This document shows positions 7,585-53,706 of a stretch of DNA of 64,000 nucleotides, piece after piece. Where the stretch lies: the NCBI GenBank assembly GCA_964016885.1, contig OZ024760.1:34844001-34908000 (forward strand), in the 5' to 3' direction. The notes below the pieces were generated by a model that ran no database searches, was not told the origin of the DNA, and saw only the letters and a program-made list of their open reading frames with translations. Each line of letters opens with the position of its first letter. Position 1 is the first letter of the stretch. This DNA comes from Eledone cirrhosa. Its lineage: Eukaryota. Both the position numbers and the translations under genes were made by a program.

Positions 7585-7589
7585 TTAAA

Positions 7590-7775
7590 CAACAGAGCAG
7601 CCTGATCATGAAATTAATGTGCAAGTGGCTGAGCATTCCACAGGCACGTGTAACCATGAGACAGTATATGGCATGGCTGACCCTTTCAATTACATGTACG
7701 ACTCATATTTTGCCTGATACAGTTGACTGAAGCAATGTGAAATAAAGTGTCTTGCTCAAGGACACAGTGAACTGA
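7590..7775 (-). mobile_element. SINE family 2 (partial)
   Basis: gcaagtggctgagcattccacag and gcaatgtgaaataaagtgtcttgctcaaggacaca. Confidence 0.6.
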
Positions 7776-9879
7776 AGCAATGGAAACTATTCTTTGATTG
7801 TGGCAATATATGATTCTATGAATGGATGGACTGTGCTACTCTAATATTTATGAATGAAATTAATTCTGAGATATACCTCCTAGACTGGGGTGTAGAGTCC
7901 GTCATTCCCTACCACAGGTGAGATATACCACCTAGACTGGGGTGTTGTGTCTGTCATTCCCTACCACAGCTGTGATATACCGCCTAAACTGGGGTGTAGA
8001 GTCTATCACTCCCTACCACAGCTAAGATATACCACCTAGATAGGGGCGTAGAGTCTGTCACTCCCTACCACAGCTGAGATATACCACCTAGACTGGGGTG
8101 TTGTGTCTGTCATTCCCTAACACAGCTCAGATATACCACCTAGACTGGGGTGTAGAGTCTGTCACTCCTTACCACAGCTGTGATATACCACCTAGACTGG
8201 GGTGTAGAGTCTGTCACTCCTTACCACAGCTGTGATATACCACCTAGACTGGGGTGTAGAGTCTACCACTCCCTACCACAGCTGAGATATACCAGCTACA
8301 CTGGGGTATAGAGTCTATCACTCACTAGCACAGCTGAGATATACCACCTAGACTGGGGTTTAGTGGCTGTCATTCCCTACCGGAGCTGTCATATACCACC
8401 TAGACTGGAGTGTCACCCCCTACCACAGCTGTGCAATACCATTTAGACTGAGGTGTAGAGTCTGTCACACTCTACCACAGCTGAGGTATACCACCTAGAC
8501 TGGAGTGTAGAGTCTGTCACTCCCTACCACGGCTGAGATATACCACCTAGACTGGGGTGTAGAGTCTGTCACCCCCAGCTGAGATATACGACCTAGACTG
8601 GGGTGTAGAGTCTGTCACTCCCTACCACAGCTGAGGTATACCACCTAGTCTGGGGTGTAGTGTCTGTCATTCCCTACCACAGCTGTGATATACCACCTAG
8701 ACTGGGCTGTAGAATCTGTCACTCCCTACCACAGCTGTGATATACCACCTAGACTGGGGTGTAGAGTCTACCAATCCCTACCAGGGCTGAGATATACCAC
8801 CTAGACCGGGGTGTAGAATCTGTCACTCCCTACCACAGGTGAGATATACCACCTAGACTGGGGTGTAAAGTCTGTCAGCTCTCTACTAAAGCTGGGATAT
8901 ACCACCTAGACTGGGTGTAGAGTCTGTCACTCCCTACCACAGCTGAGATATACTACCTAGACTGGGGTATATGGTCTGTCACTCCCTACCACAGCTGAGG
9001 TATACCACCTAGACTGGGGTGTAAAGTCTGTCACTCCCTACCACAACTGAGATATACGATCTAGACTGGGGTGTAGTGGTTGTCATTCCCTACCGGAGCT
9101 GTCATATACCACCTAGACTGGGGTGTCACTCCCTACCACAGCTGTGATATACCACCTAGACTGAGGTGTAGAGTCTGCCACACCCTACCACAACTGAGGT
9201 ATACCACCTAGACTCGGGTGTAGAGTCTACGACTCCCTACCACAGCTGAGGTATACCACCTAGACTGGGGTGTAGAGTCTGTCACGGTCACTCCCTATTA
9301 CAGCTGGGTATACCACCTAGGCTGGGGTGTAGAGTCTGCCACTCCCTACCACAGCTGAGGTATACCACCTAGACTGGGGTGTAGAGTCTGTCACTCCCTA
9401 CAACAGCTGAGGTATACCACCTAGACTGGGGTGTAGAATCTACCACTCCCTACCACAACTGAGATATACCAGCTAGACTGAGGTGTAGAGTCTGTCACTC
9501 CCTACCACAGCTGTGATATACCACCTACACTGGGGTGTAGGGTCTGTCACTCCCTACCACAGTTGAGGTATACCACCTAGGCTTGGGGTGTAAAGTCTGT
9601 CAGCTCTCTACTAAAGCTGGGATATACCACCTAGACTGGGGTATAGGGTTTGTCACTCCCTACCACAGCTGAGGTATATCACCTAGACTGGGGTGAATAG
9701 TCTGTCACTCCCTACCACAACTGAGATATACGACCTAGACTGGGGTGTAGAGTCTGTCACCCCCACCTGGAATATACGACCTAGACTGGGGTGTAGAGTC
9801 TGTCACTCCCTACCACAGCTGTGATATACCACCTAGACTGGGGTGTAGAGTCTGTCAGCTCTCTACTAAAGCTGGGATA

Positions 9880-12800
9880 TACCACCTAGTCTGGGGTGTA
9901 GAGTCTGTCACTCCCTACCACAGCTGAGATATACCACCTAGACTGGGGTGTAGGGTCTGTCACTCCCTACCACAGCTGTGATATACCAGCTAGACTGTGG
10001 TGTAGAGTCTGTCACTCCCTACCACAGCTGTGATATACCACCTACGCTGTGGTGTAGAGTCTGTCACTCCCTACCACAGCTGAGGTATACCACCTACAAT
10101 GGGGTGTAGAGTCTAACCACTCCCTACCACAGCTGAGATATACCACCTAGACAGGGGTGTAGAGTCTTTCACTCCCTACCACAGCTGTGATATACCACCT
10201 AGACTGGGGTGTAGAGTCTGTCACTCCCTACCACAGCTGTGATATACCAGCTACACTGGGGTGTCACTCCCTACCACACCTGTGATATACCATTTAGACT
10301 GGGGTGTAGAGTCTGTCACACCCTACCACAGCTGAGGTATACCACCTACAATGGGGTGTAGAGTCTAACCACTCCCTACCACAGCTGAGATATACCACCT
10401 AGACAGGGGTGTAGAGTCTTTCACTCCCTACCACAGCTGTGATATACCACCTAGACTGGGGTGTAGAGTCTGTCACTCCCTACCACAGCTGTGATATACC
10501 AGCTACACTGGGGTGTCACTCCCTACCACACCTGTGATATACCATTTAGACTGGGGTGTAGAGTCTGTCACACCCTACCACAGCTGAGGTATACCACCTA
10601 CACTAGGGTGTAGAGCCTAACCACTCCCTAACACAGCTGAGATATACCACCTAGACAGGGGTGTAGAGTGTACCACTCCCTACCACAGCTGAGGTATACC
10701 ACCTAGACTGGGGTGTAGAGTCTGTCACTTCTTTCTGCGGCTGAGATATACCAGCTAGATTGGAATGTAGAGTCTGTCACTCCCTACCACAGCTGAGATA
10801 TACCACCTAGACTGGGGTGTAGAGTCTATCACTCCCTCCCACAACTGAGATACACCACCTTGACTGAGGTGTAGAGTCTGTCACTCCCTAGCACAGCTGA
10901 GATATACCACCTAGACTGGGGTTTAGAGTCATCACTCCTTACCACAGCTGAGATGTAGCACCTAGGCTGGGTTGTAGAGTCTGCCACTCCATACCACAGC
11001 TGAGGTATACCACCTAGACTGGGGTGTAGAATCTACCACTCCCTACCACAGCTGAGGTATACCATCTAGACTGGGGTGTATAGTCTGTCAACCCCAGCTG
11101 AGATAGACGACCTAGACTGGGGTGTAGAGTCTGTCACTCCCTACCACAGCTGAGATATACCACCTAGACTGGACTGTAGTGTCTTTCTCTATCAGCTGAG
11201 ATATAGCACCTCGGCTGGGTTGTAGAGTCTGACACTCCCTTCCACAGCTGAGATATACCACCTAGGCTGGGTTGTAGAGTCTGACACTCCCTTCCACAGC
11301 TGAGATATACCACCTAGACTGGGGTGTAGAGTCTGTCACTCCCAGCTGAGATATACCAGCCAGACTGGGGTGTAGAGTCTGTCACTCCCTACCACAGCTG
11401 TGATATACCACCTAGACTGGGGTGTAGAGTCTGTCACTCCCAGCTGAGATATACCAGCCCGACTGGGTTGTAGAGTCTATCACTCCGTACCAGAGCTGTG
11501 ATATACCACCTAGACTGGGGTGTAGAGTCTGTCACTCCCTACCACAGCTGTGATATACCACCTAGACTGGGGTGTAGAGTCTGTTACTCCCAGCTGAGAT
11601 ATACCATCCAGACTGGGGTGTAGAGTCTGTCAGCCCCTACTACAGCTTGGATATACCACCTAGACTGGGGTGTAGAATCAGTCACGCTCAGCTGAGATAT
11701 GCCATCCAGCCTGTGGGGTAGAGTCTATCAGCCCCTACTACAGCTCGGATATACCACCTAGACCTAGACTGGGGTGTAGAGTCTGTCACTCCCTACCACA
11801 GCTCAGATATACCACCTAGACGGGTGTAGAGTCTGTCAATCCCTACCACAGCTGAGGTATACCACCTAGACTGCGGTGTAGAATCTACCACTCCCTATCA
11901 CATCTGAGATATTCCACCTAGACTGAGGTGTAGAGTCTGCCACTCCCTACCACAGCTGAGGTATTCCACCTAGACTGGGCTGTAGTGTCTTTCACTCCCA
12001 GCTGAGATATAGCACCTAGGCTGGGTTGTAGAGTCTGACACTCCCTTCCACAGCTGAGATATACCACCTAGACTGGGGTGTAGAGTCTACCACTCCGTAC
12101 TGCAGCTGTGATATATCACCTAGACTGGGGTGTAGAGTCTGTCACTCCCAGCTGAGATATGCCATCCAGCCTGTGGTGTAGAGTCTATCAGCCCCTACTA
12201 CAGCTCGGATATACCACCTAGACCTAGACTGGGGTGTAGAGTCTGTCACTCCCTACCACAGCTAAGATATACCACCTAGACGGGTGTAGAGTCCGTCACT
12301 CCCTACCACAGCTGAGATATACCTCCTAGACTGGGTTGGAGAATCTGTCACTCCCTACCACAGCTGTGATATACCACCTAGACTGGGTTGTAGAGTCTGT
12401 CACTCCCTACCACAGCTGTGATATACCTCCTAGACTGGGGTGTAGAATCTGTCACTCCCTACCTCAGCTGTAATATACCACCTAGACTGGGTTGTAGAGT
12501 CTGTCACTCCCTACGACAGCTGTGATATACCTCCTAGACTGGGGTGTAGAATCTGTCACTCCCTACCTCAGCTGTAATATACCACCTAGACTGGGGTGTA
12601 GAGTCTGTCACTCCCTACCACAGCTCAGATATACCACCTAGACTGGGCTGTAGGGTCTGTCACTCCCTACCACAGCTGAGGTATACCACCTAGAATGGGG
12701 TGTAGAGTCTGTCACCTTCACCTGGGATATACGACCTAGACTGGGGTGTAGAGTCTTTCACTCCCTACCACAGTTGTGATATACCACCTAGACTGGGGTG

Positions 12801-15800
12801 TGGAGTCTGTCAGATCTCTACTAAAGCTGGGATATACCACATAGACTGGGGTGTAGAGTCTGTCACTCCCTACCACAGCTGAGATATACCACCTAGACTG
12901 GGGTGTAGGGTCTGTCACTCCCTACCACAGCTGTGATATACCACCTAGACTGTGGTGTAGAGTCTGTCACTCCCTACCACAGCTGTGATATACCACCTAC
13001 ACTGGGGTGTCACTCCCTACCACACCTGTGATATACCATTTAGACTGGGGTGTAGAGTCTGTCACACCCTACCACATTTGAGATATACCACCTACACTAG
13101 GGTGTAGAGCCTAACCACTCCCTACCACAGCTGAGATATACCACCTAGACAGGGGTGTAGAGTGTACCACTCCCTACCACAGCTGTGATATACCACCTAC
13201 ACTGGGGTGTCACTCCCTACCACACCTGTGATATACCATTTAGACTGGGGTGTAGAGTCTGTCACACCCTACCACAGCTGAGGTATACCACCTACACTAG
13301 GGTGTAGAGCCTAACCACTCCCTACCACAGTTGAGATATACCACCTAGACTGGGTGTAGAGTCTGTCACTCCCTACCACAGCTAAGATATACCACCTAGA
13401 CGGGTGTAGAGTCCGTCACTCCCTACCACAGCTGAGATATACCTCCTAGACTGGGTTGGAGAATCTTTTACTCCCTACCACAGCTGAGATATTCCACGTA
13501 GACAGCGGTGTAGAGTCTACCACTCCCTACCACAGCTTAGGTATACCACCTAGGCTGGGTTGTAGAGTCTGACACTCCCTTCCACAGCTGAGATATACCA
13601 CCTAGGCTGGGTTGTAGAGTCTGACACTCCCTACCACAGCTGAGGTATACCACTTAGACTGGGGTGTAGAGTCTGTCACCCCCAGCTGAGATCGACGACC
13701 TACACTGGGGTGTAAATCTGTGATTCCCTACCACAGCTGAGATATACCACCTAGACTGCGGTGTAGAGTCTGTCACTCCCTATTACAGCTGAGGTATACC
13801 ACCTGGACTGCGGTGTAGAATCTACCACTCCCTACCACATCTGAGATATTCCACCTAGACTGAGGTGTAGAGTCTACCACTCCCTACCACAGCTGAGGTA
13901 TACCACCTAGACTGGGCTGTAGTGTCTTTCACTCCCAGGTGAGATATAGCACCTTGGCTGGGTTGTAGAGTCTGACACTCCCTTCCACAGCTGAGATATA
14001 CCACCTAGACTGGGGAGTAGAATTTGTCACTCCCTACCACAGCTGTAATATACCACCTAGACTGTGTTGTAGAGTCTGTCACTCCCTACCACAGCTGTGA
14101 TATACCACCTAGAATGGGGTGTAGAATCTGTCACTTTCTACCACAGCTGACATATACCATCTGGACTGGGGCTTAGAGTCTGTCACTCTCTACCACAGCT
14201 GAGATATACCACCTAGACTGGGGTGTAAAGTCTGTGATTCCCTACCACAGCTGAGATATACCAGCTAGACTGGGGTGTAGTATCTGTCATTCCCTGCCAC
14301 AGCTGCTATATACCCCCTAGACTAGGGTGTAGAGTCTGTCACTCCCTACCACAGCTGAGATATACCACCTAGACTGGGGTGTAGAGTCTGTCACTCCCTA
14401 CCACAGCTGTGATATACCACCTAGACTGGGGTGTAGAGTCTGTCACTCCCTACCACAGCTGTGATATACCACCTAGACTGGGGTGTAGACTCTACCACTC
14501 CCTACCACAGCTGTGATATATCACCTAGACTGGGGTGTAGAGTCTGTCACTCCCAGCTGAGATATACCATCCTGACTGGGGTGTAGAGTCTGTCACTCCC
14601 TACCACAGCTGTGATATACCACCTAGACTGGGGTGTAGAGTGTGTCACTCCCTACCACAGCTGTGATATACCACCTAGACGGGTGTAGAGTCTGTCACTC
14701 CCTACCACAGCTGAGATACTCCACCTAGACTGGGGTGTAGAATCTGTCACTCTACCACAGCTGAGATACTCCACCTACACTGGGGTGTAGAATTTGTCAC
14801 TCCCTACCACTGCAGTGATATACCACCTAGACTGGGGTGTAGAGTCTGTCACTCCCTACCACAGCTGTGATATACCTCCTAGACTGGGGTGTAGAATCTG
14901 TCACTCCCTACCTCAGCTGTGATATATCACCTAGACAGGGGTGTAGAGTCTGTCACTCCCTACCACAGCTGAGGTATACCACCTAGACTGTGGTATAGAA
15001 TCTTCCACTCCCTACCACAGCTGAGATATTCCACCTAGACTGAGGTGTAGAGTCTGCCACTCCCTACTACAGCTGAGATATACCACCTAGACTGGGCTGA
15101 AGTGTCTTTCACTCCCAGCTGAGATATAGCACCTAGGCTGGTTTGTAGAGTCTGACACTCCCTTCCACATATGAGATATACCACCTAGACTGGGGAGTAA
15201 TTTGTCACTCCCTACCACAGCTGTTATATACCACCTAGACTGGAGTGTAGTGTCTCTCACTCCCTACCACAGCTGTGATATACCACCTAGACTGGGGTGT
15301 AGAGTCTGTCAGCCCCTACTACAGCTTGGATATACCACCTAGACTGGGGTGTAGAATCTGTCACTCCCTACCACAGCTGAGATATACTACCTAGACTTGG
15401 GTGTAGAGTCTGTCACTCCCTATCACTGCTGAGATACTCCACCTAGACTGGGGGTGTAGAATCTGTCACTCCCTACCACAGCAGTCATACACCACCTAGA
15501 CTCGGATGTAGAGTCGGTCACTTCCTACCACAGCTGACATATACCATCTGGACTGGGGCTTAGAGTCTGTCACTATCTACCACAGCTGAGATATACCACC
15601 TAGACTGTGTTGTAAAGTCTATCACTCCCTTCCACAGCTGAGGTATACTACCTAGACTGGGGTGTAGAATCTACCACTCCCTACCACAGCTAAGGTATAC
15701 CACCTAGACTGGGCTGTAGTGTCTTTCACTACCAGCTGAGATATAGCACCTAGGCTGGGTTGTAGAGTCTGACATTCCCTTCCACAGCTGAGATATACCA

Positions 15801-18800
15801 CCTAGACTGGGGAGTAGACTCTGTCCCTCCCTACCACAACTGTGATATACCACCTAGACTGGGGAGGAGAATCTACTACTCCCTTCCACAGCTGAGATAT
15901 ACCACCTAGACTGGGGTGTAGAGTCTGTCACTCACTACCACAGCTGAGATACTCCACCTAGACTGGGGTGTAGAATCTACCACTCCCTACCACAGCTGAG
16001 ATATTCCGCCTAGACTGAAGTGTAGAGTCTATCACTCCCTACCACAGCTAAGGTATACTACCTAGACTGGGCTGTAGTGTCTTTCACTCCCAGCTGAGAT
16101 ATAGCACCTAGGCTGGGTTGTAGAGTCTGTCACTCCCAGCTGAGATATACCATCCAGCCTGTGGTGTAGAGTCTTTCAGCCGCTACTACAGCTTGCATAT
16201 ACCACCTAGACTGGGGTGTAGAGTCTGTCACTCCCTCCACACCTGTGATATACCACCTAGACTGGGGTGTAGAGTCTACCACTCCATACCACAGCTGTAA
16301 TATACCACCTAGACTGTGTTGTAGAGTCTGTCACTCCCTACCACAGCTGTGATATACCACCTAGAATGGGGTGTAGAATCTGTCACTTTCTACCACAGCT
16401 GACATATACCATCTGGACTGGGGCTTAGAGTCTGTCACTCTCTACCACAGCTGAGATATACCACCTAGACTGGGGTGTAAAGTCTGTGATTCCCTACCAC
16501 AGCTGAGATATACCAGCTAGACTGGGGTGTAGTATCTGTCATTCCCTGCCACAGCTGCTATATACCCCCTAGACTGGGGTGTAGAGTCTGTCACTCCCTA
16601 CCACAGCTGAGATATACCACCTAGACTGGGGTGTAGAGTCTGTCACTCCCTACCACAGCTGTGATATACCACCTAGACTGGGGTGTAGAGTCTGTCACTC
16701 CCTACCACAGCTGTGATATACCACCTAGACTGGGGTGTAGACTCTACCACTCCCTACCACAGCTGTGATATATCACCTAGACTGGGGTGTAGAGTCTGTC
16801 ACTCCCAGCTGAGATATACCATCCAGACTGGGGTGTAGAGTCTGTCACTCCCTACCACAGCTGTGATATACCACCTAGACTGGGGTGTAGAGTGTGTCAC
16901 TCCCTACCACAGCTGTGATATACCACCTAGACGGGTGTAGAGTCTGTCACTCCCTACCACAGCTGAGATACTCCACCTAGACTGGGGTGTAGAATCTGTC
17001 ACTCTACCACAGCTGAGATACTCCACCTACACTGGGGTGTAGAATTTGTCACTCCCTACCACTGCAGTGATATACCACCTAGACTGGGGTGTAGAGTCTG
17101 TCACTCCCTACCACAGCTGTGATATACCTCCTAGACTGAGGTGTAGAATCTGTCACTCCCTACCTCAGCTGTGATATATCACCTAGACAGGGGTGTAGAG
17201 TCTGTCACTCCCTACCACAGCTGAGGTATACCACCTAGACTGTGGTATAGAATCTTCCACTCCCTACCACAGCTGAGATATTCCACCTAGACTGAGGTGT
17301 AGAGTCTGCCACTCCCTACCACAGCTGAGATATACCACCTAGACTGGGCTGAAGTGTCTTTCACTCCCAGCTGAGATATAGCACCTAGGCTGGTTTGTAG
17401 AGTCTGACACTCCCTTCCACATATGAGATATACCACCTAGACTGGGGAGTAATTTGTCACTCCCTACCACAGCTGTTATATACCACCTAGACTGGAGTGT
17501 AGTGTCTCTCACTCCCTACCACAGCTGTGATATACCACCTAGACTGGGGTGTAGAGTCTGTCAGCCCCTACTACAGCTTGGATATACCACCTAGACTGGG
17601 GTGTAGAATCTGTCACTCCCTACCACAGCTGGGATATACCACCTAGACTGGGGTGTAGAGTCTGTCACTCCCTACCACAGCTGAGATATACCACCTAGAC
17701 TGGGGTGTAGGGTCTGTCACTCCCTACCACAGCTGTGATATACCACCTAGACTGTGGTGTAGAGTCTGTCACTCCCTACCACAGCTGTGATATACCACCT
17801 ACGCTGTGGTGTAGAGTCTGTCACTCCCTACCACACCTCTGATATACCATTTAGACTGGGGTGTAGAGTCTGTCACACCCTACCACAGCTGAGGTATACC
17901 ACCTACAATGGTGTGTAGAGTCTAACCACTCCCTACCACAGCTGAGATATACCACCTAGACAGGGGTGTAGAGTGTACCACTCCCTACCACAACTGAGGT
18001 ATACCACCTAGACTGGGATGTAGAGTCTTTCACTCCCTACCACAGCTGTGATATACCACCTAGACTGGGGTGTAGAGTCTGTCACTCCCTACCACAGCTG
18101 TGATATACCAGCTACACTGGGGTGTCACTCCCTACCACACCTGTGATATACCATTTAGACTGGGGTGTAGAGTCTGTCACACCCTACCACAGCTGAGGTA
18201 TACCACCTACACTAGGGTGTAGAGCCTAACCACTCCCTAACACAGCTGAGATATACCACCTAGACAGGGGTGTAGAGTGTACCACTCCCTACCACAGCTG
18301 AGGTATACCACCTAGACTGGGGTGTAGAGTCTGTCACTTCTTTCTGCGGCTGAGATATACCAGCTAGATTGGAATGTAGAGTCTGTCACTCCCTACCACA
18401 GCTGAGATATACCACCTAGACTGGGGTGTAGAGTCTATCACTCCCTCCCACAACTGAGATACACCACCTTGACTGAGGTGTAGAGTCTGTCACTCCCTAG
18501 CACAGCTGAGATATACCACCTAGACTGGGGTTTAGAGTCATCACTCCTTACCACAGCTGAGATGTAGCACCTAGGCTGGGTTGTAGAGTCTGCCACTCCA
18601 TACCACAGCTGAGGTATACCACCTAGACTGGAGTGTAGAATCTACCACTCCCTACCACAGCTGAGGTATACCATCTAGACTGGGGTGTATAGTCTGTCAA
18701 CCCCAGCTGAGATAGACGACCTAGACTGGGGTGTAGAGTCTGTCACTCCCTACCACAGCTGAGATATACCACCTAGACTGGACTGTAGTGTCTTTCTCTA

Positions 18801-21800
18801 TCAGCTGAGATATAGCACCTCGGCTGGGTTGTAGAGTCTGACACTCCCTTCCACAGCTGAGATATACCACCTAGGCTGGGTTGTAGAGTCTGACACTCCC
18901 TTCCACAGCTGAGATATACCACCTAGGCTGGGTTGTAGAGTCTGACACTCCCTTCCACAGCTGAGATATACCACCTAGACTGGGGTGTAGAGTCTGTCAC
19001 TCCCAGCTGAGATATACCAGCCAGACTGGGGTGTAGAGTCTGTCACTCCCTACCACAGCTGTGATATACCACCTAGACTGGGGTGTAGAGTCTGTCACTC
19101 CCAGCTGAGATATACCAGCCCGACTGGGTTGTAGAGTCTATCACTCCCTACCAGAGCTGTGATATACCACCTAGACTGGGGTGTAGAGTCTGTCACTCCC
19201 TACCACAGCTGTGATATACCACCTAGACTGGGGTGTAGAGTCTGTTACTCCCAGCTGAGATATACCATCCAGACTGGGGTGTAGAGTCTGTCAGCCCCTA
19301 CTACAGCTTGGATATACCACCTAGACTGGGGTGTAGAATCAGTCACTCTCAGCTGAGATATGCCATCCAGCCTGTGGGGTAGAGTATATCATCCCCTACT
19401 ACAGCTCGGATATACCACCTAGACCTAGACTGGGGTGTAGAGTCTGTCACTCCCTACCACAGCTCAGATATACCACCTAGACGGGTGTAGAGTCTGTCAC
19501 TCCCTACCACAGCTGAGGTATACCACCTAGACTGCGGTGTAGAATCTACCACTCCCTATCACATCTGAGATATTCCACCTAGACTGAGGTGTAGAGTCTG
19601 CCACTCCCTACCACAGCTGAGGTATTCCACCTAGACTGGGCTGTAGTGTCTTTCACTCCCAGCTGAGATATAGCACCTAGGCTGGGTTGTAGAGTCTGAC
19701 ACTCCCTTCCACAGCTGAGATATACCACCTAGACTGGGGTGTAGAGTCTACCACTCCGTACTGCAGCTGTGATATATCACCTAGACTGGGGTGTAGAGTC
19801 TGTCACTCCCAGCTGAGATATGCCATCCAGCCTGTGGTGTAGAGTCTATCAGCCCCTACTACAGCTCGGATATACCACCTAGACCTAGACTGGGGTGTAG
19901 AGTCTGTCACTCCCTACCACAGCTAAGATATACCACCTAGACGGGTGTAGAGTCCGTCACTCCCTACCACAGCTGAGATATACCTCCTAGACTGGGTTGG
20001 AGAATCTGTCACTCCCTACCACAGCTGTGATATACCACCTAGACTGGGTTGTAGAGTCTGTCACTCCCTACCACAGCTGTGATATACCTCCTAGACTGGG
20101 GTGTAGAATCTGTCACTCCCTACCTCAGCTGTAATATACCACCTAGACTGGGTTGTAGAGTCTGTCACTCCCTACGACAGCTGTGATATACCTCCTAGAC
20201 TGGGGTGTAGAATCTGTCACTCCCTACCTCAGCTGTAATATACCACCTAGACTGGGGTGTAGAGTCTGTCACTCCCTACCACAGCTCAGATATACCACCT
20301 AGACTGGGCTGTAGGGTCTGTCACTCCCTACCACAGCTGAGGTATACCACCTAGAATGGGGTGTAGAGTCTGTCACCCCCACCTGGGATATACGACCTAG
20401 ACTGGGGTGTAGAGTCTTTCACTCCCTACCACAGTTGTGATATACCACCTAGACTGGGGTGTGGAGTCTGTCAGATCTCTACTAAAGCTGGGATATACCA
20501 CATAGACTGGGGTGTAGAGTCTGTCACTCCCTACCACAGCTGAGATATACCACCTAGACTGGGGTGTAGGGTCTGTCACTCCCTACCACAGCTGTGATAT
20601 ACCACCTAGACTGTGGTGTAGAGTCTGTCACTCCCTACCACAGCTGTGATATACCACCTACACTGGGGTGTCACTCCCTACCACACCTGTGATATACCAT
20701 TTAGACTGGGGTGTAGAGTCTGTCACACCCTACCACATTTGAGATATACCACCTACACTAGGGTGTAGAGCCTAACCACTCCCTACCACAGCTGAGATAT
20801 ACCACCTAGACAGGGGTGTAGAGTGTACCACTCCCTACCACAGCTGTGATATACCACCTACACTGGGGTGTCACTCCCTACCACACCTGTGATATACCAT
20901 TTAGACTGGGGTGTAGAGTCTGTCACACCCTACCACAGCTGAGGTATACCACCTACACTAGGGTGTAGAGCCTAACCACTCCCTACCACAGTTGAGATAT
21001 ACCACCTAGACTGGGTGTAGAGTCTGTCACTCCCTACCACAGCTAAGATATACCACCTAGACGGGTGTAGAGTCCGTCACTCCCTACCACAGCTGAGATA
21101 TACCTCCTAGACTGGGTTGGAGAATCTTTTACTCCCTACCAGAGCTGAGATATTCCACGTAGACAGCGGTGTAGAGTCTACCACTCCCTACCACAGCTTA
21201 GGTATACCACCTAGGCTGGGTTGTAGAGTCTGACACTCCCTTCCACAGCTGAGATATACCACCTAGGCTGGGTTGTAGAGTCTGACACTCCCTACCACAG
21301 CTGAGGTATACCACTTAGACTGGGGTGTAGAGTCAGTCACCCCCAGCTGAGATCGACGACCTACACTGGGGTGTAAATCTGTGATTCCCTACCACAGCTG
21401 AGATATACCACCTAGACTGGGGTGTAGAGTCTGTCACTCCCTACCACAGCTAAGATATACCACCTAGACGGGTGTAGAGTCCGTCACTCCCTACCACAGC
21501 TGAGATATTCCACCTAGACTGAGGTGTAGAGTCTACCACTCCCTACCACAGCTGAGGTATACCACCTAGACTGGGCTGTAGTGTCTTTCACTCCCAGGTG
21601 AGATATAGCACCTTGGCTGGGTTGTAGAGTCTGACACTCCCTTCCACAGCTGAGATATACCACCTAGACTGGGGAGTAGAATTTGTCACTCCCTACCACA
21701 GCTGTAATATACCACCTAGACTGTGTTGTAGAGTCTGTCACTCCCTACCACAGCTGTGATATACCACCTAGAATGGGGTGTAGAATCTGTCACTTTCTAC

Positions 21801-42409: not shown

Positions 42410-45400
42410 CCCCAGCTGAGATAGACGACCTAGACTGGTGTGTAGAGTCGGTCACTTCCTACCACAGCATATACTACCAGCTGAGATATAGCTCCTAGAC
42501 AGGGGTGTAGAGCCTGTCAGTCTCTACCACAACTGAGATATACCACCTAGACTGGTGTGTAGAGTCGGTCACTTCCTACCACAGCCTACATATACCATCT
42601 GGGGTGTGATATACCATATACAGCTGTGATATACCATTTAGACTGGGGTGTAGAGTCTGTCATACCCTACCACAGATGAGGTATACCACCTAGACTGGGG
42701 TGTAGTCGCCCACTCCCTACCACAGCTGAGATATACCACCTCGGCTGAGGTGTACTGTCTGCCACTCTCTACCACAGCTCAGGTATACCACCTAGACTGG
42801 GGTGTAGAGTATGTCACTCCCTACCACAGCTGTGATATGCCACCTAGACTGGGTTGTAGAGTCTTTCAGCCCCTACCACAGCTGAGATATACCTCCTACA
42901 CTGGGGTGTAGAATCTGTCACTCCCTACCACAGCTGTGATATACCACCTAGACTGGGGTATAGAGTCTGTCACTCCCTAGCACAGCTGTGATATACCACC
43001 TAGACTGGGGTGTAGTCTACCACTCCCTACCACAGCTGAGATATACCACCTAGACTGAGGTGTAGAGTCTGCCACTCCCTACCGCAGTTGAGTTATACCA
43101 CCTAGCATGGGCTGTTATGTATTTCACTCCCTGCTGAGCTATACCACCTAGGCTGGGTTGTAGAGTCAGTCACTCCCTTCCACAGCTGAGATATACCACC
43201 TAGTCTGGGGTGTAGAATTTGTCACTCCCTACCACAGCTGAGGTATACTACCTAGACTGGGGTGTAGAGTCTACCATTCCCTACCACAACTGAGATATAC
43301 CACCTAGACTGGGGTGTAAAGTCTACCACTCCATACCACAGCTGAGATATACCACCTAGACTGGGGTGTAGAATCTGTCACTCCCTACCACAGCTGTGAT
43401 ATACCACCTAGACTGGGGTGTACAGTCTGCCACTCTCTACCACAGCTCAGGTATACCACCTAGAATGTGGTGTAGAGTTTTTCAGCCCCTACCACAGCTG
43501 AGATATACCTACTAGACTGGGGTGTAGAATCTGTCACTTCCTGCCACAGCTGTAATATACCACCTAGACTGGGGTGTAGAATCTGTCACTCCCTACCACA
43601 ACTGAGGTATACCACTTGGACTGGGGTGTAGAAACTGTCACTCCCTACCACAGCTGACATATACCACCTAGACTGGGGTGTAGGTTCTGTCACTCCCTAC
43701 CACAGATGAGGTATACCACCTAGACTGGGGTGTAGAATCTGTCACTCCCTACCACAGCTGTGATATACCACCTAGACTGGGGTGTAGAGTCTATCACTCC
43801 CTATCATAGCTGAACTATACCACCTAGACTGGGATGTAGAGTCTGTCACTCCCTACCAGAGCTGAGCTATACCACCTAGACTGGGATGTAGTGTCTGTCA
43901 CCCCCAGCTGACATATACGACCTCGACTAGGCTGTAGAGTCTGTCACTCCCTACCACAGCTGAGGTGTACCACCTAGACTGGGGTGTCGAGTCTGTCACT
44001 CCCTACCACAGCTGTGATATACCACCTAGACTGGGGTGTAGTGTCTACCACTCCGTACCACAGCTGAGATATACCACCTAGACTGGGGTGTAGAGTCTGT
44101 CACACCCTACCACAGCTGAGGTATACCACCTAGACAGGGCTGTAGTGTCTTTCACTCACAGCTGAGATATAGCACCTAGGCTGGGTTGTAGAGTCTGTCA
44201 CTCCCTACCACAGCTGAGATTTACCACCTAGACTGGGGAGTAGACTCTGTCACTCCCTACCACAGCCGTGATATACCATCTAGACTGGGGTGTAGAGTCT
44301 GTCACTCCCTACCACAGCTGTGATATGCCACCGAGACTGGGGTGTAGAGTCTTTCAGCCCCGACTACAGCTTTGATATACCACCTAGACTGGGGTGTAGA
44401 GTCTGTCACTCCCTACCACAGCAGTGATATACCACCTAGACTGGGGTGTAGAGTCTACCACTCCCTACCACAGCTGAGATATACCACCTAGACTGAGGTG
44501 TAGAGTCTGCCACTCCCTACCACAGCTGAGGTATACCACCTAGACTGGGCTGTTATTTAGTTCACTCCCTGCTGAGCTATACCACCTAGTCTGGGGTGTA
44601 GAATTTGTCACTCCCTACCACAGCTGTGATATACCATTTAGACTGGGGTGTAGAGTCTGTCATACCCTACCACAGCTGAGGTATACTATCTAGACTGGGG
44701 TGTAGAGTCTACCACTGCCTACCACAGCTGAGATATACCACCTAGACTGAGGTGTACAGTCTGCCACTCTCTACCACAGCTCAGGTATACCACCTAGATT
44801 GGGATGTAGAGTCTTTCAGCCCCTACCACAGCTGTGATATACCACCTAGACTGGGATGTAGAGTCTACCACTCCGTACCACAGCTGAGATATACCACCTA
44901 GACTGGGGTGTAGAGTCTACCATTCCGTACCACAGCTGAGATATACCACCTAGACTGGGGTGTAGAATCTGTCACTCCCTACCACAACTGAGGTATACCA
45001 CTTGGACTGAGGTGTAGAAACTGTCACTCCCAGCTGACATATACCACCTAGACTGGGGTGTAGATTCTATCACTCCCTACCACAGCTGAGGTATACCACC
45101 TAGACTGGGGTGTAGAGTCTGTCACTCCCTACCACAGCTGAGCTATACCACCTAGACTGGGATGTCACTCCCTACCACAGCTGTGATATACCATTTAGAC
45201 TGGGGTGTAGAGACTGTCATACCCTACCACAGCTGAGGTATACCACCTAGACTGGGGTGTAGAGTCTACCACTCCCTACCACAGCTGAGATATACCACCT
45301 AGACTGGAGTGTAGAGTCTGCCACTCCCTACCACAGATGAGGTATACCACCTAGACTGGGGTGTAGAATCTGTCACTCCCTACCACAGCTGTGATATACC

Positions 45401-45769
45401 ACCTAGACTGGGGTGTAGAATCTGTCACTCCCTACCACAGCTGTGATATACCACCTAGACTGGAGTGTAGAGTCTGTCACTCCCTAGCACATCTGTGATA
45501 TACCACCTAGATTGAGGTGTAGAGTCTGCCACTCCCTACCGCAGTTGAGGTATACGACCTAGACTGGGCTGTTATGTATTTCACTCGCTGTTGAGGTATA
45601 CCACCTAGGCTGGGTTGTAGAGTCAGTCACTCGCTTCCACAGCTGAGATATACCATTTAGACTGGGGTGTAGAGTCTGTCATACCCTACCACAGCTGACG
45701 TATACTACCTAGACTGGGGTGTAGAGTCTACCACTGCCTACCACAGCTGAGATATACCACCTAGACTGA

Positions 45770-48700
45770 GGTGTAGAGTCTGTCACTCCCTACCACAACT
45801 GAGGTATACCACCTAGACTGGGGTGTAGAATCTGTCACTCCCTACCACAGCTGACATATACCACCTAGACTGGGGTGTAGGTTCTGTTACTCCCTACCAC
45901 AGCTGAGGTATACCACCTAGACTGGGGTGTAGAGTCTATCACTCCCTATCATAGCTGAGGTATACCACCTAGACTGAGGTGTAGGTTCTGTCATGCTCTA
46001 CCACAGCTGAGCTATAGCACCTAGACTGGGGTGTAGAGTCTATCACTCCCTTCCACAGCTGAGATATACCACCTAGACTGGAGTGTAAAGTCTACAACTC
46101 CCTACCACAGCTGAGATATACCACCTAGACTGGGGTGTAGAGTCTGTCACTCCCTACCACAGCTGAGCTATACCACCTAGACTGGGATGTAGAGTCTGTC
46201 ACCCCCAGCTGAGATATACGACCTAGACTGGGCTGTAGAGTCTGTCACTCCCTACCAAAGCTGAGATATACCATTTAGACTGGGGTGTAGAGTCTGTCAC
46301 TCCCTACCACAGTTGAGGTGTACCCCCTAGACTGGGGTGTAGAGTCTGTCACTCCCTACCACAGCTGTGATATACCACTTAGACTGGGGTGTAGAGTCTA
46401 CCACTCCGTACCACAGCTGAGATATACCACCTAGACTGGGGTGTAGAGTCTGTCACTCCCTACCACAGCTGAAGTATACCACCTAGACTGGGGTGTAGAA
46501 TCTACCACTCCCTACCACAGCTGAGCTATACCACCTAGACTGGGATGTAGAGTCTGTCACCCCCAGCTGAGATATACGACCTAGACTGGGCTGTAGAGTC
46601 TGTCACTCCCTACCAAAGCTGAGATATACCACCTAGACTGGGGTGTAGAGTCTGTCACTCCCTACCACAGTTGAGGTGTACCCCCTAGACTGGGGTGTAG
46701 AGTCTGTCACTCCCAGCTGAGATATAGCACCTAGGCTGGGTTGTAGAGTCTGACATTCCCTTCCACAGCTGAGATATACCACCTAGACTGGGGTGTAGAC
46801 TCTGTCACTCCCTACCACAACTGAGGTATACCACCTAGACTGGGGTGTAGAATCTACAACTCTGTACCACCTAGACTGGGGTGTAGAGTCTGTCACTCCC
46901 TACCACAACTGAGGTATACCACCTAGACTGGGGTGTAGAATCTACCACTCCCTACAAGAGCTGAGATATACCACCTAGACAGAGGTGTAGAGTCTGCCAC
47001 TCCCTACCACAGCTGAGATATAGCACCTAGTCTGGGGTGTAGAATTTGTCACTCCCTACCACAGCTGTGATACATCATCTAGACGGATGTAGAATCTGAA
47101 ACTCCCAGCTGAGATATACCAGCCAGACTGTGGTGTAGAGTCTGTCACTCCCTACCACAGCTGACATATACCACCTTGACTGGGGTGTAGAGTCTGTCAC
47201 TCCCTACCACAGCTGAGATATACCACCTAGACTGGGGTGTATAGTCTGTCACTCCCTACCACAGCTGTGATATACCACCTAAACTGAGGTATAGAGTCTA
47301 CCACTCCCTACCACAGCCGAGGTATACCACCTAGACTGGGCTGTAGTGTCTTTCACCCCCAGCTGAGATATAGCACCTAGGCTGGGTTGTAGAGTCTGAC
47401 ATTCCCTTCCACAGCTGAGATATACCACCTAGACTGGGGTGTAGACTCTGTCACTCCCTACCACAGCTGTGATATACCACCTAGACTGGGGTGTAGAGTC
47501 TACCACTCCGTACCACAGCTGAAATATACCACCTAGACTGGGGTGTAGAGTCTGTCACTCCCTACTACAACTGAGGTATACCACCTAGACTGGGGTGTGG
47601 AATCTACCACTCCCTACCACAGCTTGGATATACCACCTAGGCTGGGGTGTAGAATCTGTCACTCCCTACCACAGCAGTGATATACCACCTAGACTGGGGT
47701 GTAGAGTCTGTCACTCCCTACCACACCTGACATATACCTCCTAGACTGGTGTGTAGAATCTGTCACTCCCTACCACAGCTGTGATATACCACCTAGACTG
47801 GCGTGTAGAGTCTACCATTCCGTACCACAGCTGTGATATACCACCTAGACTGGGGTGTAGAATCTGTCACTCCCTACCACAGCTGTGATATACCACCTAG
47901 ACTGGGGTGTAGAGTCTGTCAGCCCCTACTACAGCTTGGATATACCACCTAGACTGGGGTGTAGAATCTGTCACTCCCTACCACAGCAGTGATATACCAC
48001 CCAGACTGGTGTAGAGGCTGTCACTCCCTACCACAGCTGAGATATACCTCCTAGACTGGTGTAGAGTCTGTCACTCCCTAGCACAGCTGTGATATACCAC
48101 CTAGACTGGGGCATAGAGTCTACCACTCTGTACCACCTAGACTGGGGTGTAGAGTCTGTCACTCCCTACCACAACTGAGGTATACCACCTAGACTGGGGT
48201 GTAAAATCTACCACTCCCTACAAGAGCTGAGATATACCACCTAGACAGAGGTGTAGAGTCTGCCACTCCCTACAACAGCTGAGATATAGCACCTAGTCTG
48301 GGGTGTAGAATTTGTCACTCCCTACCACAGCTGTGATACATCATCTAGACGGATGTAGAATCTGAAACTCCCAGCTGAAATATACCAGCCAGACTGTGGT
48401 GTAGAGTCTGTCACTCCCTACCACAGCTGACATATACCACCTTGACTGGGGTGTAGAGTCTGTCACTCCCTACCACAGCTGAGATATACCACCTAGACTG
48501 GGGTGTAGAGTCTGTCACTCTCTACCACAGCTGTGATACATCATCTAGACGGATGTAGAATCTGAAACTCCCAGCTGAGATATACCAGCCAGACTGTGGT
48601 GTAGAGTCTGTCACTCCCTACCACACCTGACATATACCACCTAGACTGGGGTGTAGAGTCTGTCACTCCCTACCACAATCGTGATATACAACCTAGACTG

Positions 48701-51700
48701 GGGTGTAGAGTCTATCCTTCCCTACCACAGCTGTGATATACCACCTAGGCTGGGGTGTCTAGTCTGTCACTCCCTACCACAGCTGTGATATACCACCTAG
48801 ACTGGGGTGTAGAATCTATCACTCCCTACCACAGCTGACATATACCACCTAGACTGGGGTGTAGGTTCTGTCACTCCCTATCACAGCTGAGGTATACGAC
48901 CTAGACTGGCGTGTAGAGTCTACCACTCCCTACCACAGCAGAGATATACCACCTAGACTGGGGTGTCACTCCGTACCACAGCTGTGATATACCATTTAGA
49001 CTGGGGTGTAGAGTCTGTAACACCCTACCACAGCTGTGATATACCATTTAGACTGGGGTATAGAGTCTGTCAGCCATTACTACAGCTGGGATATACCACC
49101 TAGACTGGGGTGTAGAATCTGTCACTCCCTACCACAGCTGTGATATACCACCTAGACTGGGGTGTAAAGTCTGTCACTCCCTAACACAGCTATGATATAC
49201 CACCTAGACTGTGGTGTAGAGTCTGTCACTTCCTACTACAGTTAGGATATACCACCTAATCTGGGGTGTAGAGTCTGTCACTCCCAACCACAGCTGAGGT
49301 ATTCCACCTAGACTGGGGTGTAGAGTCTGTCACTCCCTACCACAGCTGACGTATACTACCTAGACTGGGGTGTAGAGTCTACCACTGCCTACCACAGCTG
49401 AGATATACCACCTAGACTGAGGTGTACAGTCTGCCACTCTCTACCACAGCTCAGGTATACCACCTAGATTGGGGTGTAGAGTCTTTCAGCCCCTACCACA
49501 AATGTGATATACCACCTAGACTGGGGTGTAGAGTCTGTCACTCCCTAGCACAGCTGTGATATACCACCTAGACTGGGGTGTAGAGTCTACCATTCCGTAC
49601 CACAGCTGAGATATACCACCTAAACTGGGGTGTAGAGTCTGTCACTCCCTACCACAACTGAGGTATACCACCTAGACTGGGGTGTAGAATCTGTCACTCC
49701 CTACCACAGCTGACATATACCACCTAGACTGGGGTGTAGGTTCTGTTACTCCCTACCACAGCTGAGGTATACCACCTAGACTGGGGTGTAGAGTCTATCA
49801 CTCCCTATCATAGCTGAGGTATACCACCTAGACTGAGGTGTAGGTTCTGTCATGCTCTACCACAGCTGAGCTATAGCACCTAGACTGGGGTGTAGAGTCT
49901 ATCACTCCCTTCCACAGCTGAGATATACCACCTAGACAGGAGTGTAAAGTCTACAACTCCCTACCATAGCTGAGATATACCACCTAGACTGGGGTGTAGA
50001 GTCTGTCACTCCCTACCACAGCTGAGCTATACCACCTAGACTGGGATGTAGAGTCTGTCACCCCCAGCTGAGATATACGACCTAGACTGGGCTGTAGAGT
50101 CTGTCACTCCCTACCAAAGCTGAGATATACCATTTAGACTGGGGTGTAGAGTCTGTCACTCCCTACCACAGTTGAGGTGTACCCCCTAGACTGGGGTGTA
50201 GAGTCTGTCACTCCCTACCACAGCTGTGATATACCACTTAGACTGGGGTGTAGAGTCTACCACTCCGTACCACAGCTGAGATATACCACCTAGACTGGGG
50301 TGTAGAGTCTGTCACTCCCTACCACAGCTGAAGTATACCACCTAGACTGGGGTGTAGAATCTACCACTCCCTACCACAGCTGAGCTATACCACCTAGACT
50401 GGGATGTAGAGTCTGTCACCCCCAGCTGAGATATACGACCTAGACTGGGCTGTAGAGTCTGTCACTCCCTACCAAAGCTGAGATATACCACCTAGACTGG
50501 GGTGTAGAGTCTGTCACTCCCTACCACAGTTGAGGTGTACCCCCTAGACTGGGGTGTAGAGTCTGTCACTCCCAGCTGAGATATAGCACCTAGGCTGGGT
50601 TGTAGAGTCTGACATTCCCTTCCACAGCTGAGATATACCACCTAGACTGGGGTGTAGACTCTGTCACTCCCTACCACAACTGAGGTATACCACCTAGACT
50701 GGGGTGTAGAATCTACAAATCTGTACCACCTAGACTGGGGTGTAGAGTCTGTCACTCCCTACCACAACTGAGGTATACAACCTAGACTGGGGTGCAGAAT
50801 CTACCACTCCCTACAAGAGCTGAGATATACCACCTAGACAGAGGTGTAGAGTCTGCCACTCCCTACCACAGCTGAGATATAGCACCTAGTCTGGGGTGTA
50901 GAATTTGTCACTCCCTACCACAGCTGTGATACATCATCTAGACGGATGTAGAATCTGAAACTCCCAGCTGAGATATACCAGCCAGACTGTGGTGTAGAGT
51001 CTGTCACTCCCTACCACAGCTGACATATACCACCTTGACTGGGGTGTAGAGTCTGTCACTCCCTACCACAGCTGAGATATACCACCTAGACTGGGGTGTA
51101 TAGTATGTCACTCCCTACCACAGCTGTGATATACCACCTAAACTGAGGTATAGAGTCTACCACTCCCTACCACAGCCGAGGTATACCACCTAGACTGGGC
51201 TGTAGTGTCTTTCACCCCCAGCTGAGATATAGCACCTAGGCTGGGTTGTAGAGTCTGACATTCCCTTCCACAGCTGAGATATACCACCTAGACTGGGGTG
51301 TAGACTCTGTCACTCCCTACCACAGCTGTGATATACCACCTAGACTGGGGTGTAGAGTCTACCACTCCGTACCACAGCTGAAATATACCACCTAGACTGG
51401 GGTGTAGAGTCTGTCACTCCCTACTACAACTGAGGTATACCACCTAGACTGGGGTGTGGAATCTACCACTCCCTACCACAGCTTGGATATACCACCTAGG
51501 CTGGGGTGTAGAATCTGTCACTCCCTACCACAGCAGTGATATACCACCTAGACTGGGGTGTAGTGTCTGTCACTCCCTACCACACCTGACATATACCTCC
51601 TAGACTGGTGTGTAGAATCTGTCACTCCCTACCACAGCTGTGATATACCACCTAGACTGGCGTGTAGAGTCTACCACTCCGTACCACAGCTGTGATATAC

Positions 51701-53095
51701 CACCTAGACTGGGGTGTAGAATCTGTCACTCCCTACCACAGCTGTGATATACCACCTAGACTGGGGTGTAGAGTCTGTCAGCCCCTACTACAGCTTGGAT
51801 ATACCACCTAGACTGGGGTGTAGAATCTGTCACTCCCTACCACAGCAGTGATATACCACCCAGACTGGTGTAGAGGCTGTCACTCCCTACCACAGCTGAG
51901 ATATACCTCCTAGACTGGTGTAGAGTCTGTCACTCCCTAGCACAGCTGTGATATACCACCTAGACTGGGGCATAGAGTCTACCACTCTGTACCACCTAGA
52001 CTGGGGTGTAGAGTCTGTCACTCCCTACCACAACTGAGGTATACCACCTAGACTGGGGTGTAAAATCTACCACTCCCTACAAGAGCTGAGATATACCACC
52101 TAGACAGAGGTGTAGAGTCTGCCACTCCCTACCACAGCTGAGATATAGCACCTAGTCTGGGGTGTAGAATTTGTCACTCCCTACCACAGCTGTGATACAT
52201 CATCTAGACGGATGTAGAATCTGAAACTCCCAGCTGAAATATACCAGCCAGACTGTGGTGTAGAGTCTGTCACTCCCTACCACAGCTGACATATACCACC
52301 TTGACTGGGGTGTAGAGTCTGTCACTCCCTACCACAGCTGAGATATACCACCTTGACTGGGGTGTAGAGTCTGTCACTCTCTACCACAGCTGTGATACAT
52401 CATCTAGACGGATGTAGAATCTGAAACTCCCAGCTGAGATATACCAGCCAGACTGTGGTGTAGAGTCTGTCACTCCCTACCACACCTGACATATACCACC
52501 TAGACTGGGGTGTAGAGTCTGTCACTCCCTACCACAATCGTGATATACAACCTAGACTGGGGTGTAGAGTCTATCCTTCCCTACCACAGCTGTGATATAC
52601 CACCTAGGCTGGGGTGTCTAGTCTGTCACTCCCTACCACAGCTGTGATATACCACCTAGACTGGGGTGTAGAATCTATCACTCCCTACCACAGCTGACAT
52701 ATACCACCTAGACTGGGGTGTAGGTTCTGTCACTCCCTATCACAGCTGAGGTATACGACCTAGACTGGCGTGTAGAGTCTACCACTCCCTACCACAGCAG
52801 AGATATACCACCTAGACTGGGGTGTCACTCCGTACCACAGCTGTGATATACCATTTAGACTGGGGTGTAGAGTCTGTAACACCCTACCACAGCTGTGATA
52901 TACCATTTAGACTGGGGTATAGAGTCTGTCAGCCATTACTACAGCTGGGATATACCACCTAGACTGGGGTGTAGAATCTGTCACTCCCTACCACAGCTGT
53001 GATATACCACCTAGACTGGGGTGTAAAGTCTGTCACTCCCTAACACAGCTATGATATACCACCTAGACTGTGGTGTAGAGTCTGTCACTTCCTAC
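45770..53095. repeat. Higher-order repeat domain C, period 3,859 bp, about 1.9 copies
   Basis: gttctgttac at 45881/49740 and gtagaggctg at 48011/51870, with scattered substitutions between copies. Confidence 0.88.
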
Positions 53096-53706
53096 CACAG
53101 CTGTGATATACCATTTAGAATGGGGTGTAGAGCCTGTCACACCCTACCACAGCTGAGGTATACCACCTAGGCTGCGGTGTAGAGTCTTTCACTCCCAGCT
53201 GAGATATACCACCTAGGCTGGGGAGTAGCGTCTGTCACTCCCTACCACAGCTGTGATATACCACCTAGACTGCGGTGTCACTCCCTTCCACAGCTGTGAT
53301 ATACCATTTATACTAGGGTGCAGAGTCTACCACTCCCTACCACAGCTGAGATATACCACTTAGACTGGGGTGTAGAGTCTGTCACTCCCTACCACAATTG
53401 TGATATACAACCTAGACTGGGGTGTAGAGTCTATCCCTCCCTACCACAGCTGTGATATACCACCTAGGCTGGGGTGTATAGTCTGTCACTCCCTACCACA
53501 GCTGTGATATACCACCTAGACTGGGGTGTAGAGTCTGTCACTCCCTACTACAGTTAGGATATACCACCTAATCTGGGGTGTAGAGTCTGTCACTCCCAAC
53601 CACAGCTGAGGTATTCCACCTAGACTGGGGTGTAGAGTCTGTCACTCCCTACCACAGCTGAGATATACCCTCCAGACTGGGGTGTAGAATCAGCTACTTC
53701 CTTTCA

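What the first reader, a model, noticed from the sequence alone, without database searches (positions are those of the whole stretch)
7866..53691. A 46-kb satellite array inside one intron of an intact kinase gene
Seen: about 900 same-orientation 52-bp monomers fill about 93% of a phase-2 intron that splits the PX domain. I saw no transposon insertions in the array, although the flanking introns carry a repeat element roughly every 0.5-1 kb. The exons on both sides are stop-free with intact splice sites. Known: satellite-filled giant introns are documented in Drosophila Y fertility genes, where dedicated RNA-binding proteins are needed for expression. Inference: this is a young or actively homogenised array that Pol II must transcribe in full, so it could act as a length-polymorphic delay or attenuator of SGK expression.
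Basis: partly seen in the sequence, partly recalled or inferred. Interest (0 to 1): 0.75.

Follow-up and report, generated by a model that had tools for sequence, protein, structure and literature searches.

The report
Jumping-gene tail satellite fills kinase intron
A 46,000-base run of a 52-base repeat, which matches the stop codon and tail of an old jumping gene, fills one intron of an intact kinase gene in an octopus-like genome; it was likely copied in from other arrays and grew in place as tolerated filler, and nothing here shows that it times or dampens the gene.

Summary
Observation confirmed: about 890 same-strand units (7866-53702) fill 93% of a 49,220-bp phase-2 GT-AG intron between single-copy, in-frame exons of an SGK-like gene, with no foreign insertion. 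The unit is the last two codons, stop codon and first 43 bases of the 3'UTR of an old reverse-transcriptase/restriction-like-endonuclease LINE, and the array ends in that LINE's tail. Most dispersed copies sampled carry one unit. Others carry 4 to several thousand (about 97 kb on C4, 273 kb on C10). Arrays on several chromosomes share the same consensus and joint although their LINE flanks have each decayed 23-32%, so units were likely copied between loci (or are constrained) rather than born at each site. Local growth went by 2-8 kb block duplications. Two are near-perfect, so the true length is uncertain (at least 29-33 kb). The delay/attenuator idea has no support: an unrelated 170-kb array begins 2.5 kb upstream of the first exon seen, and two more (41 kb, at least 28 kb) lie beyond it. 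Splicing could not be checked (no RNA run). The scan has noted the same phenomenon for other LINE families in this genome; I found no note on this family. A known kind of thing.

The parts
7866..53702 (+). Satellite array, about 890 units, mostly 52 bp, in LINE-sense orientation (same strand as the gene)
9919..9970 (+). Example unit in LINE register: two last codons, TGA stop at unit positions 7-9, then 43 bases of 3'UTR
   Evidence: sequence; frame and stop seen in LINE-flanked copies
13841..30172 (+). Block duplication, period 7,659 (13841-22513 vs 21500-30172, one mismatch); a third, 97.5% identical copy starts near 10410
32170..42409 (+). Block duplication, period 5,100, one mismatch in 5,140 bp
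45770..53489 (+). Block duplication, period 3,859, 97.9% identical
53653..53702 (+). Last unit: 15% diverged, carries the LINE-type base at unit position 42; likely the relic's own original unit end
53703..53766 (+). Remnant of the LINE 3'UTR (T-rich tract and terminal motif); the poly(A)-like hexamer seen in several other copies is mutated here
   Evidence: alignment with single-unit copies
5197..54416 (+). 49,220-bp GT-AG phase-2 intron
4538..4621 (+). Exon, PX-like region (84 bp); no start codon, upstream exon not located
5051..5196 (+). Exon before the giant intron (146 bp), single copy in the genome
54417..54510 (+). Exon after the giant intron (94 bp); only the self-hit covers it; also present in a related organism's run
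58759..58808 (+). Exon (50 bp)
60054..60111 (+). Exon (58 bp), kinase glycine-rich loop
61200..61415 (+). Exon (216 bp), kinase N-lobe
62726..62838 (+). Exon (113 bp)
63130..63166 (+). Exon (37 bp), catalytic loop
1..2008 (.). End of an unrelated 39-bp array of about 170 kb (G000:C21:34,676,251-34,846,008)

Best explanation
The array is a satellite made from the stop codon and first 3'UTR bases of an old reverse-transcriptase/restriction-like-endonuclease LINE; it ends in that LINE's tail inside the intron, and was likely seeded by homology-guided copying of ready-made units into a decayed LINE copy, then grown by unequal exchange, as tolerated, functionless filler. Steps: (1) Shown: the unit is the LINE end, and the window's 3' junction runs into LINE tail. 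(2) Shown: the same 52-bp unit with the same derived joint occurs at relics on C1, C2, C4, C10, C20, C23 and here. (3) Inferred: a tandem joint arose rarely, and tracts of young units were pasted into old relics by ectopic gene conversion or templated break repair. (4) Shown in the assembly: later growth by 2-8 kb block duplications; unequal crossover is inferred. (5) Inferred: the intron is still spliced at its ordinary ends and the array has no regulatory role. Odds: step 1 about 0.95, step 3 about 0.6, step 5 about 0.8.
For: Origin: of 13 other loci examined, the 5' flank reads as the end of an ORF that stops inside the first unit in 8 clearly and in 2 as a short remnant; 3 show none, as does the window. 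All 24 non-self loci fetched by flank similarity (23 distinct) carry one whole or partial unit followed by a pyrimidine-rich tail. L076 has reverse transcriptase (tblastn E 1e-23), thumb, knuckle and endonuclease homology in order, ending at the unit; the sister-family query has Pfam RVT_1 at 40.3 bits, cut-off 29.6. The satellite consensus differs from the majority of 25 single-unit copies at 2 of 52 positions. Copying between loci: flanks of 6 arrays with the 52-bp unit are 23-32% diverged from the LINE majority and form no clade, yet array interiors are 2-11% diverged and their consensus differs from the window's at 0-2 positions. At the 27 positions not used in the search, 3 such loci show 0 private changes where about 16.7 are expected for growth from the local decayed unit (Poisson P 6e-8; 0.003 if the two shared changes are counted). 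Terminal units are mostly more diverged than interiors, and 8 of 12 last units keep the LINE-type base at position 42. No special role: an unrelated 170-kb array and two more (41 kb, at least 28 kb) lie within about 280 kb upstream. No AATAAA on either strand of the array and no GTRAGT. Both flanking exons are single-copy, and the 2 exon differences listed for a related organism are synonymous (38 rows were not shown).
Against: No 52-bp haplotype with 3 or more changes is shared between the window and any other array; the longest exact match is 103 bp, about two consensus units. No donor tract was identified. The expected old-to-young gradient inside terminal units is weak: first units have 23 differences in the outer half and 21 in the inner half; last units have 37 and 14, against interior rates of 0.5 and 1.56 per unit for the two halves. 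Two old, 16-17% diverged arrays (L157, L158) already hold the derived joint, which fits an ancestral multi-unit LINE. The window has no LINE remnant on the 5' side and no target-site duplication of 6 bp or more. Loci were found by similarity to the window (C10 and L041 strongly so), n is small, the flank tree is poorly resolved (95-133 columns, no starred branch), and the Poisson test assumes equal mutation rates in flank and array. Absence of function is not shown directly.
Confidence: 0.6

Rival explanations
1. A LINE subfamily already carried a short multi-unit tail; each array grew in place from it, and the shared consensus is kept by constraint (a bound protein, or exchange that favours consensus-like units).
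For: Old mixed arrays L157 and L158 contain both ancestral and derived joints. Similar 42- and 46-bp variant units occur at several loci. L075 has 2-3 units. No donor tract was found.
Against: Flanks of array loci share no more derived changes than single copies do (4.0 vs 3.3 per pair) and form no clade. Neutral in-place turnover predicts about 17 private consensus changes where 0 are seen, so an extra, untested constraint is needed.
Confidence: 0.25
2. The array has been co-opted as a length-tuned delay or attenuator of SGK expression.
For: 46 kb of extra template would add roughly 12-45 minutes at 1-4 kb per minute (rates recalled). The array lies on the sense strand and holds 5 CAG|GTGAG and 134 AGGTAT words that could act as decoy or recursive sites.
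Against: The unit is LINE debris also amplified at other loci. An unrelated, larger array lies next door. No polyadenylation signal in the array. Introns of 50-100 kb did not attenuate in the Drosophila study (PMC11207136, passages).
Confidence: 0.07
3. The length, or the link between the flanks, is an assembly artefact.
For: 8,142 bp of exact match at period 7,659 and a near-exact 5,100-bp repeat are hard to resolve with reads shorter than about 17 kb. No listed contig spans the 3' junction, where the tool skipped repeats.
Against: No N gap. Consecutive single-copy exons stay in frame across the array. The variant spectrum differs from the C4 and C10 arrays. Each duplication holds one difference and there is a 97.5% third copy. 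Collapsing both near-perfect blocks still leaves 33 kb, and all three 29 kb.
Confidence: 0.08

Closest known systems
Satellites from retroelement 3' ends: cetacean common satellite (L1 3' end), chicken HinfI (CR1 ORF2 end plus 3'UTR), pea PisTR-A (Ogre 3'UTR), as listed in PMC9659126 (passages read)
   Same: Monomer homologous to the 3' end of a retrotransposon; HinfI also spans ORF end and 3'UTR.
   Different: Here the parent is a restriction-like-endonuclease LINE with one unit per typical copy, the unit is only 52 bp, junctions with the parent survive at many loci, and this array is intronic.
Ogre-derived satellites of Lathyrus sativus (PMC7004042, abstract)
   Same: Short arrays inside dispersed retrotransposon copies that occasionally expand into long arrays.
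   Different: There the elements are LTR elements that carry the tandem array, and expansion is pericentromeric. Here most copies sampled have one unit, and this array lies about 0.5 Mb from a contig end, in a gene.
SINE-derived satellites of squamates (PMC10702118, abstract and passages)
   Same: Tandem repeats of one segment of a dispersed retroelement at many loci; linked to subtelomeric regions.
   Different: Those derive from SINEs and, by the abstract, have not amplified as far as typical satellites; here arrays reach 46-273 kb.
Drosophila Y-loop gigantic genes kl-3 and kl-5 (PMC6508621 abstract; PMC11207136 passages)
   Same: Satellite-filled intron that must be transcribed if the gene is expressed.
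   Different: Megabase introns of simple repeats making up over 99% of the locus, with dedicated RNA-binding proteins. Here 49 kb, a 52-bp unit, and no evidence of a dedicated programme.

Membership tests
Retrotransposon-derived satellite DNA | Long head-to-tail array of a short unit | tested here: met
   about 890 units on one strand
Retrotransposon-derived satellite DNA | Unit homologous to a defined part of a dispersed element | tested here: met
   2 of 52 differences from the majority of 25 single-unit copies
Retrotransposon-derived satellite DNA | Parent sequence retained at the array junctions | tested here: met
   3' tail kept in the window; 5' ORF remnant absent here but present at 10 of 13 other loci and at the C10 array
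Retrotransposon-derived satellite DNA | Heterochromatic or centromeric chromatin | not testable with these tools
   needs ChIP or FISH
Restriction-like-endonuclease (RLE) non-LTR retrotransposon (parent) | Reverse transcriptase upstream of the C-terminal domain | tested here: met
   tblastn E 1e-23 in L076; Pfam RVT_1 above cut-off in the sister family L132
Restriction-like-endonuclease (RLE) non-LTR retrotransposon (parent) | Zinc knuckle followed by a PD-(D/E)xK-type endonuclease after the RT (layout from PMC5678591, passages) | tested here: inconclusive
   Cys/His knuckle and PD...D...K pattern seen by eye in translations; Pfam gave no significant family for 6 of 6 pieces
Restriction-like-endonuclease (RLE) non-LTR retrotransposon (parent) | Single ORF; target-site duplication | tested here: inconclusive
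   no intact copy of the parent found; no shared word of 6 bp or more at the window's junctions
CRE clade | Placement by RT phylogeny with named CRE elements | not tested
   label rests on recalled motif resemblance; named hits were uncharacterised or hypothetical proteins, apart from one labelled a ubiquitin hydrolase
Drosophila Y-loop intron gigantism | Megabase introns, over 99% of the locus satellite | tested here: not met
   49,220 bp, 93% of one intron
Drosophila Y-loop intron gigantism | Simple-sequence satellite | tested here: not met
   52-bp complex unit
Drosophila Y-loop intron gigantism | Dedicated RNA-binding proteins and stage-specific transcription | not testable with these tools
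   no RNA run listed
SGK3-like kinase (PX plus AGC kinase) | Intact kinase motifs, activation loop and C-terminal hydrophobic motif | tested here: met
   seen in translations; motif identities recalled
SGK3-like kinase (PX plus AGC kinase) | N-terminal PX domain and orthology | not tested
   no profile or database comparison obtained; exon sizes 84, 146, 94, 50, 58 resemble recalled vertebrate SGK3 sizes, unchecked

The most novel reading that the evidence does not exclude
The 52-bp unit is a homing satellite: it targets dead copies of its own parent LINE by homology, possibly helped by cuts or reverse transcription from the abundant sister RLE LINE family, and turns relics in introns into 50-270 kb arrays. 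Octopus intron gigantism would then be nucleated at predictable sites.
Probability: 0.15. Interest if true: 0.65.

Novelty: new member of a known kind. Interest (0 to 1): 0.33.

Why it matters
It is a clean record of how a satellite starts from the end of a LINE and spreads: single-unit relics, short arrays and 46-273 kb arrays coexist, with junctions intact. The mismatch between young units and old flanks gives a countable test of in-place growth against copying between loci. If the gene is expressed, it also shows that an ordinary-looking kinase gene tolerates tens, perhaps hundreds, of kilobases of satellite in its introns. That would make this genome a place to test whether such arrays affect expression at all. 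It does not by itself show a new regulatory mechanism.

Tried and rejected
RNA: no RNA holder was listed, which is no evidence either way. Laying 4 runs on the 5' junction gave 0 records even for the runs that match the 3' flank, so it was no test. At the 3' junction the tool skipped 53660-53736, so presence of the array in organism B is unknown. A database comparison of the spliced kinase was not obtained, so the gene name and the junction in annotated orthologues stay open. The first coding exon was not found in window 2009-4537 or in 280 kb upstream, so the 170-kb array is probably, not certainly, intronic. Pfam on 6 endonuclease pieces gave nothing significant. A protein search with one sister-family piece gave no hit among 897 candidates. 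A pattern for array 3' ends found only 2 places, one of them useful. RNA folding of three units is unremarkable, z -1.33. Hammerhead/retrozyme and Helitron/MITE origins were considered and dropped once the flank proved to be a LINE ORF end. Retrotransposition of young arrays was rejected for loci with 5' flanks, since those flanks are old. Papers: searches listed nothing on octopus satellites of this kind; searches listed nothing on satellites from CRE/RLE 3' ends (listings only; the library lacks most subscription journals and Repbase). No supplements were read. Scan notes: the sequence and near-place look-ups returned nothing.
Full report
1. Observation. The array is real as assembled. TRF reports period 52 from 7866. 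I count 892 anchors on the + strand and none on the - strand; 661 are spaced 52 bp apart. Those units are 91.8% identical to their consensus and 14.4% apart pairwise. The intron is 5197-54416 (49,220 bp, GT-AG, phase 2) and the array fills 93.1% of it. Eight exons join into 266 stop-free codons with 7 of 7 GT-AG introns, and the rest of the kinase, its C-terminal motifs and a stop follow in the next 10 kb. The exons on both sides are single-copy. A related organism's run carries the downstream exon, and the two exon differences listed are synonymous (38 rows not shown). There is no foreign insertion in the array, against 22 repeat blocks in 16.2 kb of flank. The window is G000:C21:34,844,001-34,908,000 of a 35.4-Mb contig in a 3.0-Gb genome. 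I call it octopus-like from the nearest named protein hits and recalled SINE features. The name SGK rests on recalled motifs.

2. Internal structure. The array is built of nested blocks: period 7,659 (8,142 bp exact, then one mismatch, plus a 97.5% third copy), 5,100 (1 mismatch in 5,140), 3,859 (97.9%) and 2,252 (94.7%). These show recent growth by large duplications, or for the two near-perfect ones possibly assembly over-expansion. Collapsing them leaves 33 kb, or 29 kb with the third.

3. What the unit is. A 25-base word of the unit has 4,598 exact hits genome-wide, against 0 for the reversed control; 194 are in this array. At other loci the arrays start and end at the same points. Their 5' flank translates as the end of an ORF whose stop codon lies at unit positions 7-9: clearly at 8 of 13 loci, as a short remnant at 2, absent at 3 and in the window. 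A search with that flank gave 1,518 candidates, 40 scored. All 24 non-self loci fetched (23 distinct) have one whole or partial unit, most followed by a pyrimidine-rich tail. The window's 3' end aligns with that tail, with the terminal hexamer mutated. Longer copies match a sister family with 36,879 candidate hits, whose protein has Pfam RVT_1 and 92 database relatives. Copy L076 shows RT, thumb, knuckle and endonuclease homology in order, ending at the unit. This layout is that of restriction-like-endonuclease LINEs (PMC5678591, passages); the CRE label is recalled and untested, and Pfam did not recognise the endonuclease pieces.

4. Other arrays. The same 52-bp unit forms arrays of 7-31 units on C1, C2, C4, C10, C20 and C23, of about 97 kb on C4 and about 273 kb on C10 (ends located and interiors sampled, not read in full). 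Other relics carry units of 46, 50, 54 or 67 bp with different joints, which look like separate births.

5. How it spread. The satellite consensus is 2 of 52 bases from the majority of 25 single-unit copies, which are themselves 21% diverged on average. The flanks of six arrays with the 52-bp unit are 23-32% diverged and do not cluster (weak tree). Their interiors are 2-11% diverged, with consensus 0-2 changes from the window's. Growth from each locus's own decayed unit predicts about 16.7 private changes at the 27 positions not used in my search in three loci; none is seen. Last units often keep the LINE-type base (8 of 12). I infer that young units were copied into old relics by homology. 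Against this: no shared multi-change haplotype or tract over 103 bp with the window's array, only a weak gradient within terminal units, two old arrays that already hold the derived joint, small n, and loci chosen by similarity. Constraint on the unit is the main rival. The lead for copying between dead copies came from earlier scan notes on other LINE families; I tested it only on this family.

6. Function. The array has no AATAAA on either strand and no GTRAGT, though it has 5 CAG|GTGAG and 134 AGGTAT words. An unrelated 39-bp array of about 170 kb ends 2.5 kb before the first exon seen; a 55-bp array of 41 kb and a 31-bp array of at least 28 kb lie further up. The first exon was not located. 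The Drosophila precedent concerns megabase simple-repeat introns (PMC6508621, abstract), and 50-100 kb introns did not attenuate in that system (PMC11207136, passages). No RNA run was listed, so splicing and expression are untested. A transcription delay of tens of minutes would follow physically (rate recalled) but nothing marks it as selected.

7. Known and new. Satellites from retroelement 3' ends are known (PMC9659126 passages; PMC7004042 abstract; PMC10702118 abstract and passages). This scan has unreviewed notes of 40-84 kb intronic arrays from RTE LINE tails and of joints copied between elements in this genome; none was returned for this sequence. My paper searches (listings only) showed no description of this family or of an RLE-LINE parent, within a limited library.

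8. Verdict. Real feature, LINE-tail satellite, new member of a known kind. The regulatory reading is unsupported; the copying mechanism is likely but unproven. Interest 0.33.

Noticed in passing
window 1-2008 and G000:C21:34,676,251-34,846,008: 39-bp array of about 170 kb directly upstream, probably in an earlier intron of the same gene. It is interrupted 37 times by near-identical 172-195 bp SINE copies of about two types, apparently co-amplified with the array.
   Followed up: partly
G000:C21:34,564,010-34,638,762: A 31-bp array of at least 28 kb and a 55-bp array of 41 kb; four large unrelated arrays lie within about 335 kb near this contig end.
   Followed up: no
G000:C10:41,464,300-41,737,767 and C4:176,922,600-177,019,606: Arrays of the same 52-bp unit of about 273 and 97 kb. 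Both keep the LINE ORF remnant at the 5' end; neither shows the LINE tail at the 3' end, and the C4 one runs into RTE-like sequence. Gene context not checked.
   Followed up: partly
L030, L032 (G000:C2:278.07 and 279.02 Mb): Two arrays 1 Mb apart share a 54/52/50-bp variant with its own joint and 3 multi-change haplotypes, a hint of local copying between neighbouring relics.
   Followed up: partly
window 54128-54369: 40-bp minisatellite of 6 copies before the acceptor; organism B's contig skips 186 bp of it with 27 other letters between, so it is much shorter there.
   Followed up: partly
window 54841-55018 (- strand): 3' fragment of the sister RLE LINE family in the next intron (tblastn E 1e-13).
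   Followed up: no
window 55730-58130: About 2.4 kb of a broken LINE with endonuclease- and RT-like coding sequence on the + strand, by eye.
   Followed up: no
L132 (G000:C28:88,982,500-88,990,499): Fairly intact member of a very abundant RT+RLE LINE family (36,879 candidate hits), with a weak PHD-like match upstream, below the Pfam cut-off.
   Followed up: partly
window 7866-53702: CpG observed/expected is 0.077 although GC is 50%; the consensus unit has no CpG.
   Followed up: no
G000:C21:34,666,889-34,670,000: Nearly intact RTE-like LINE (open frames of 571 and 451 codons) among several older RTE copies upstream of the 39-bp array.
   Followed up: no
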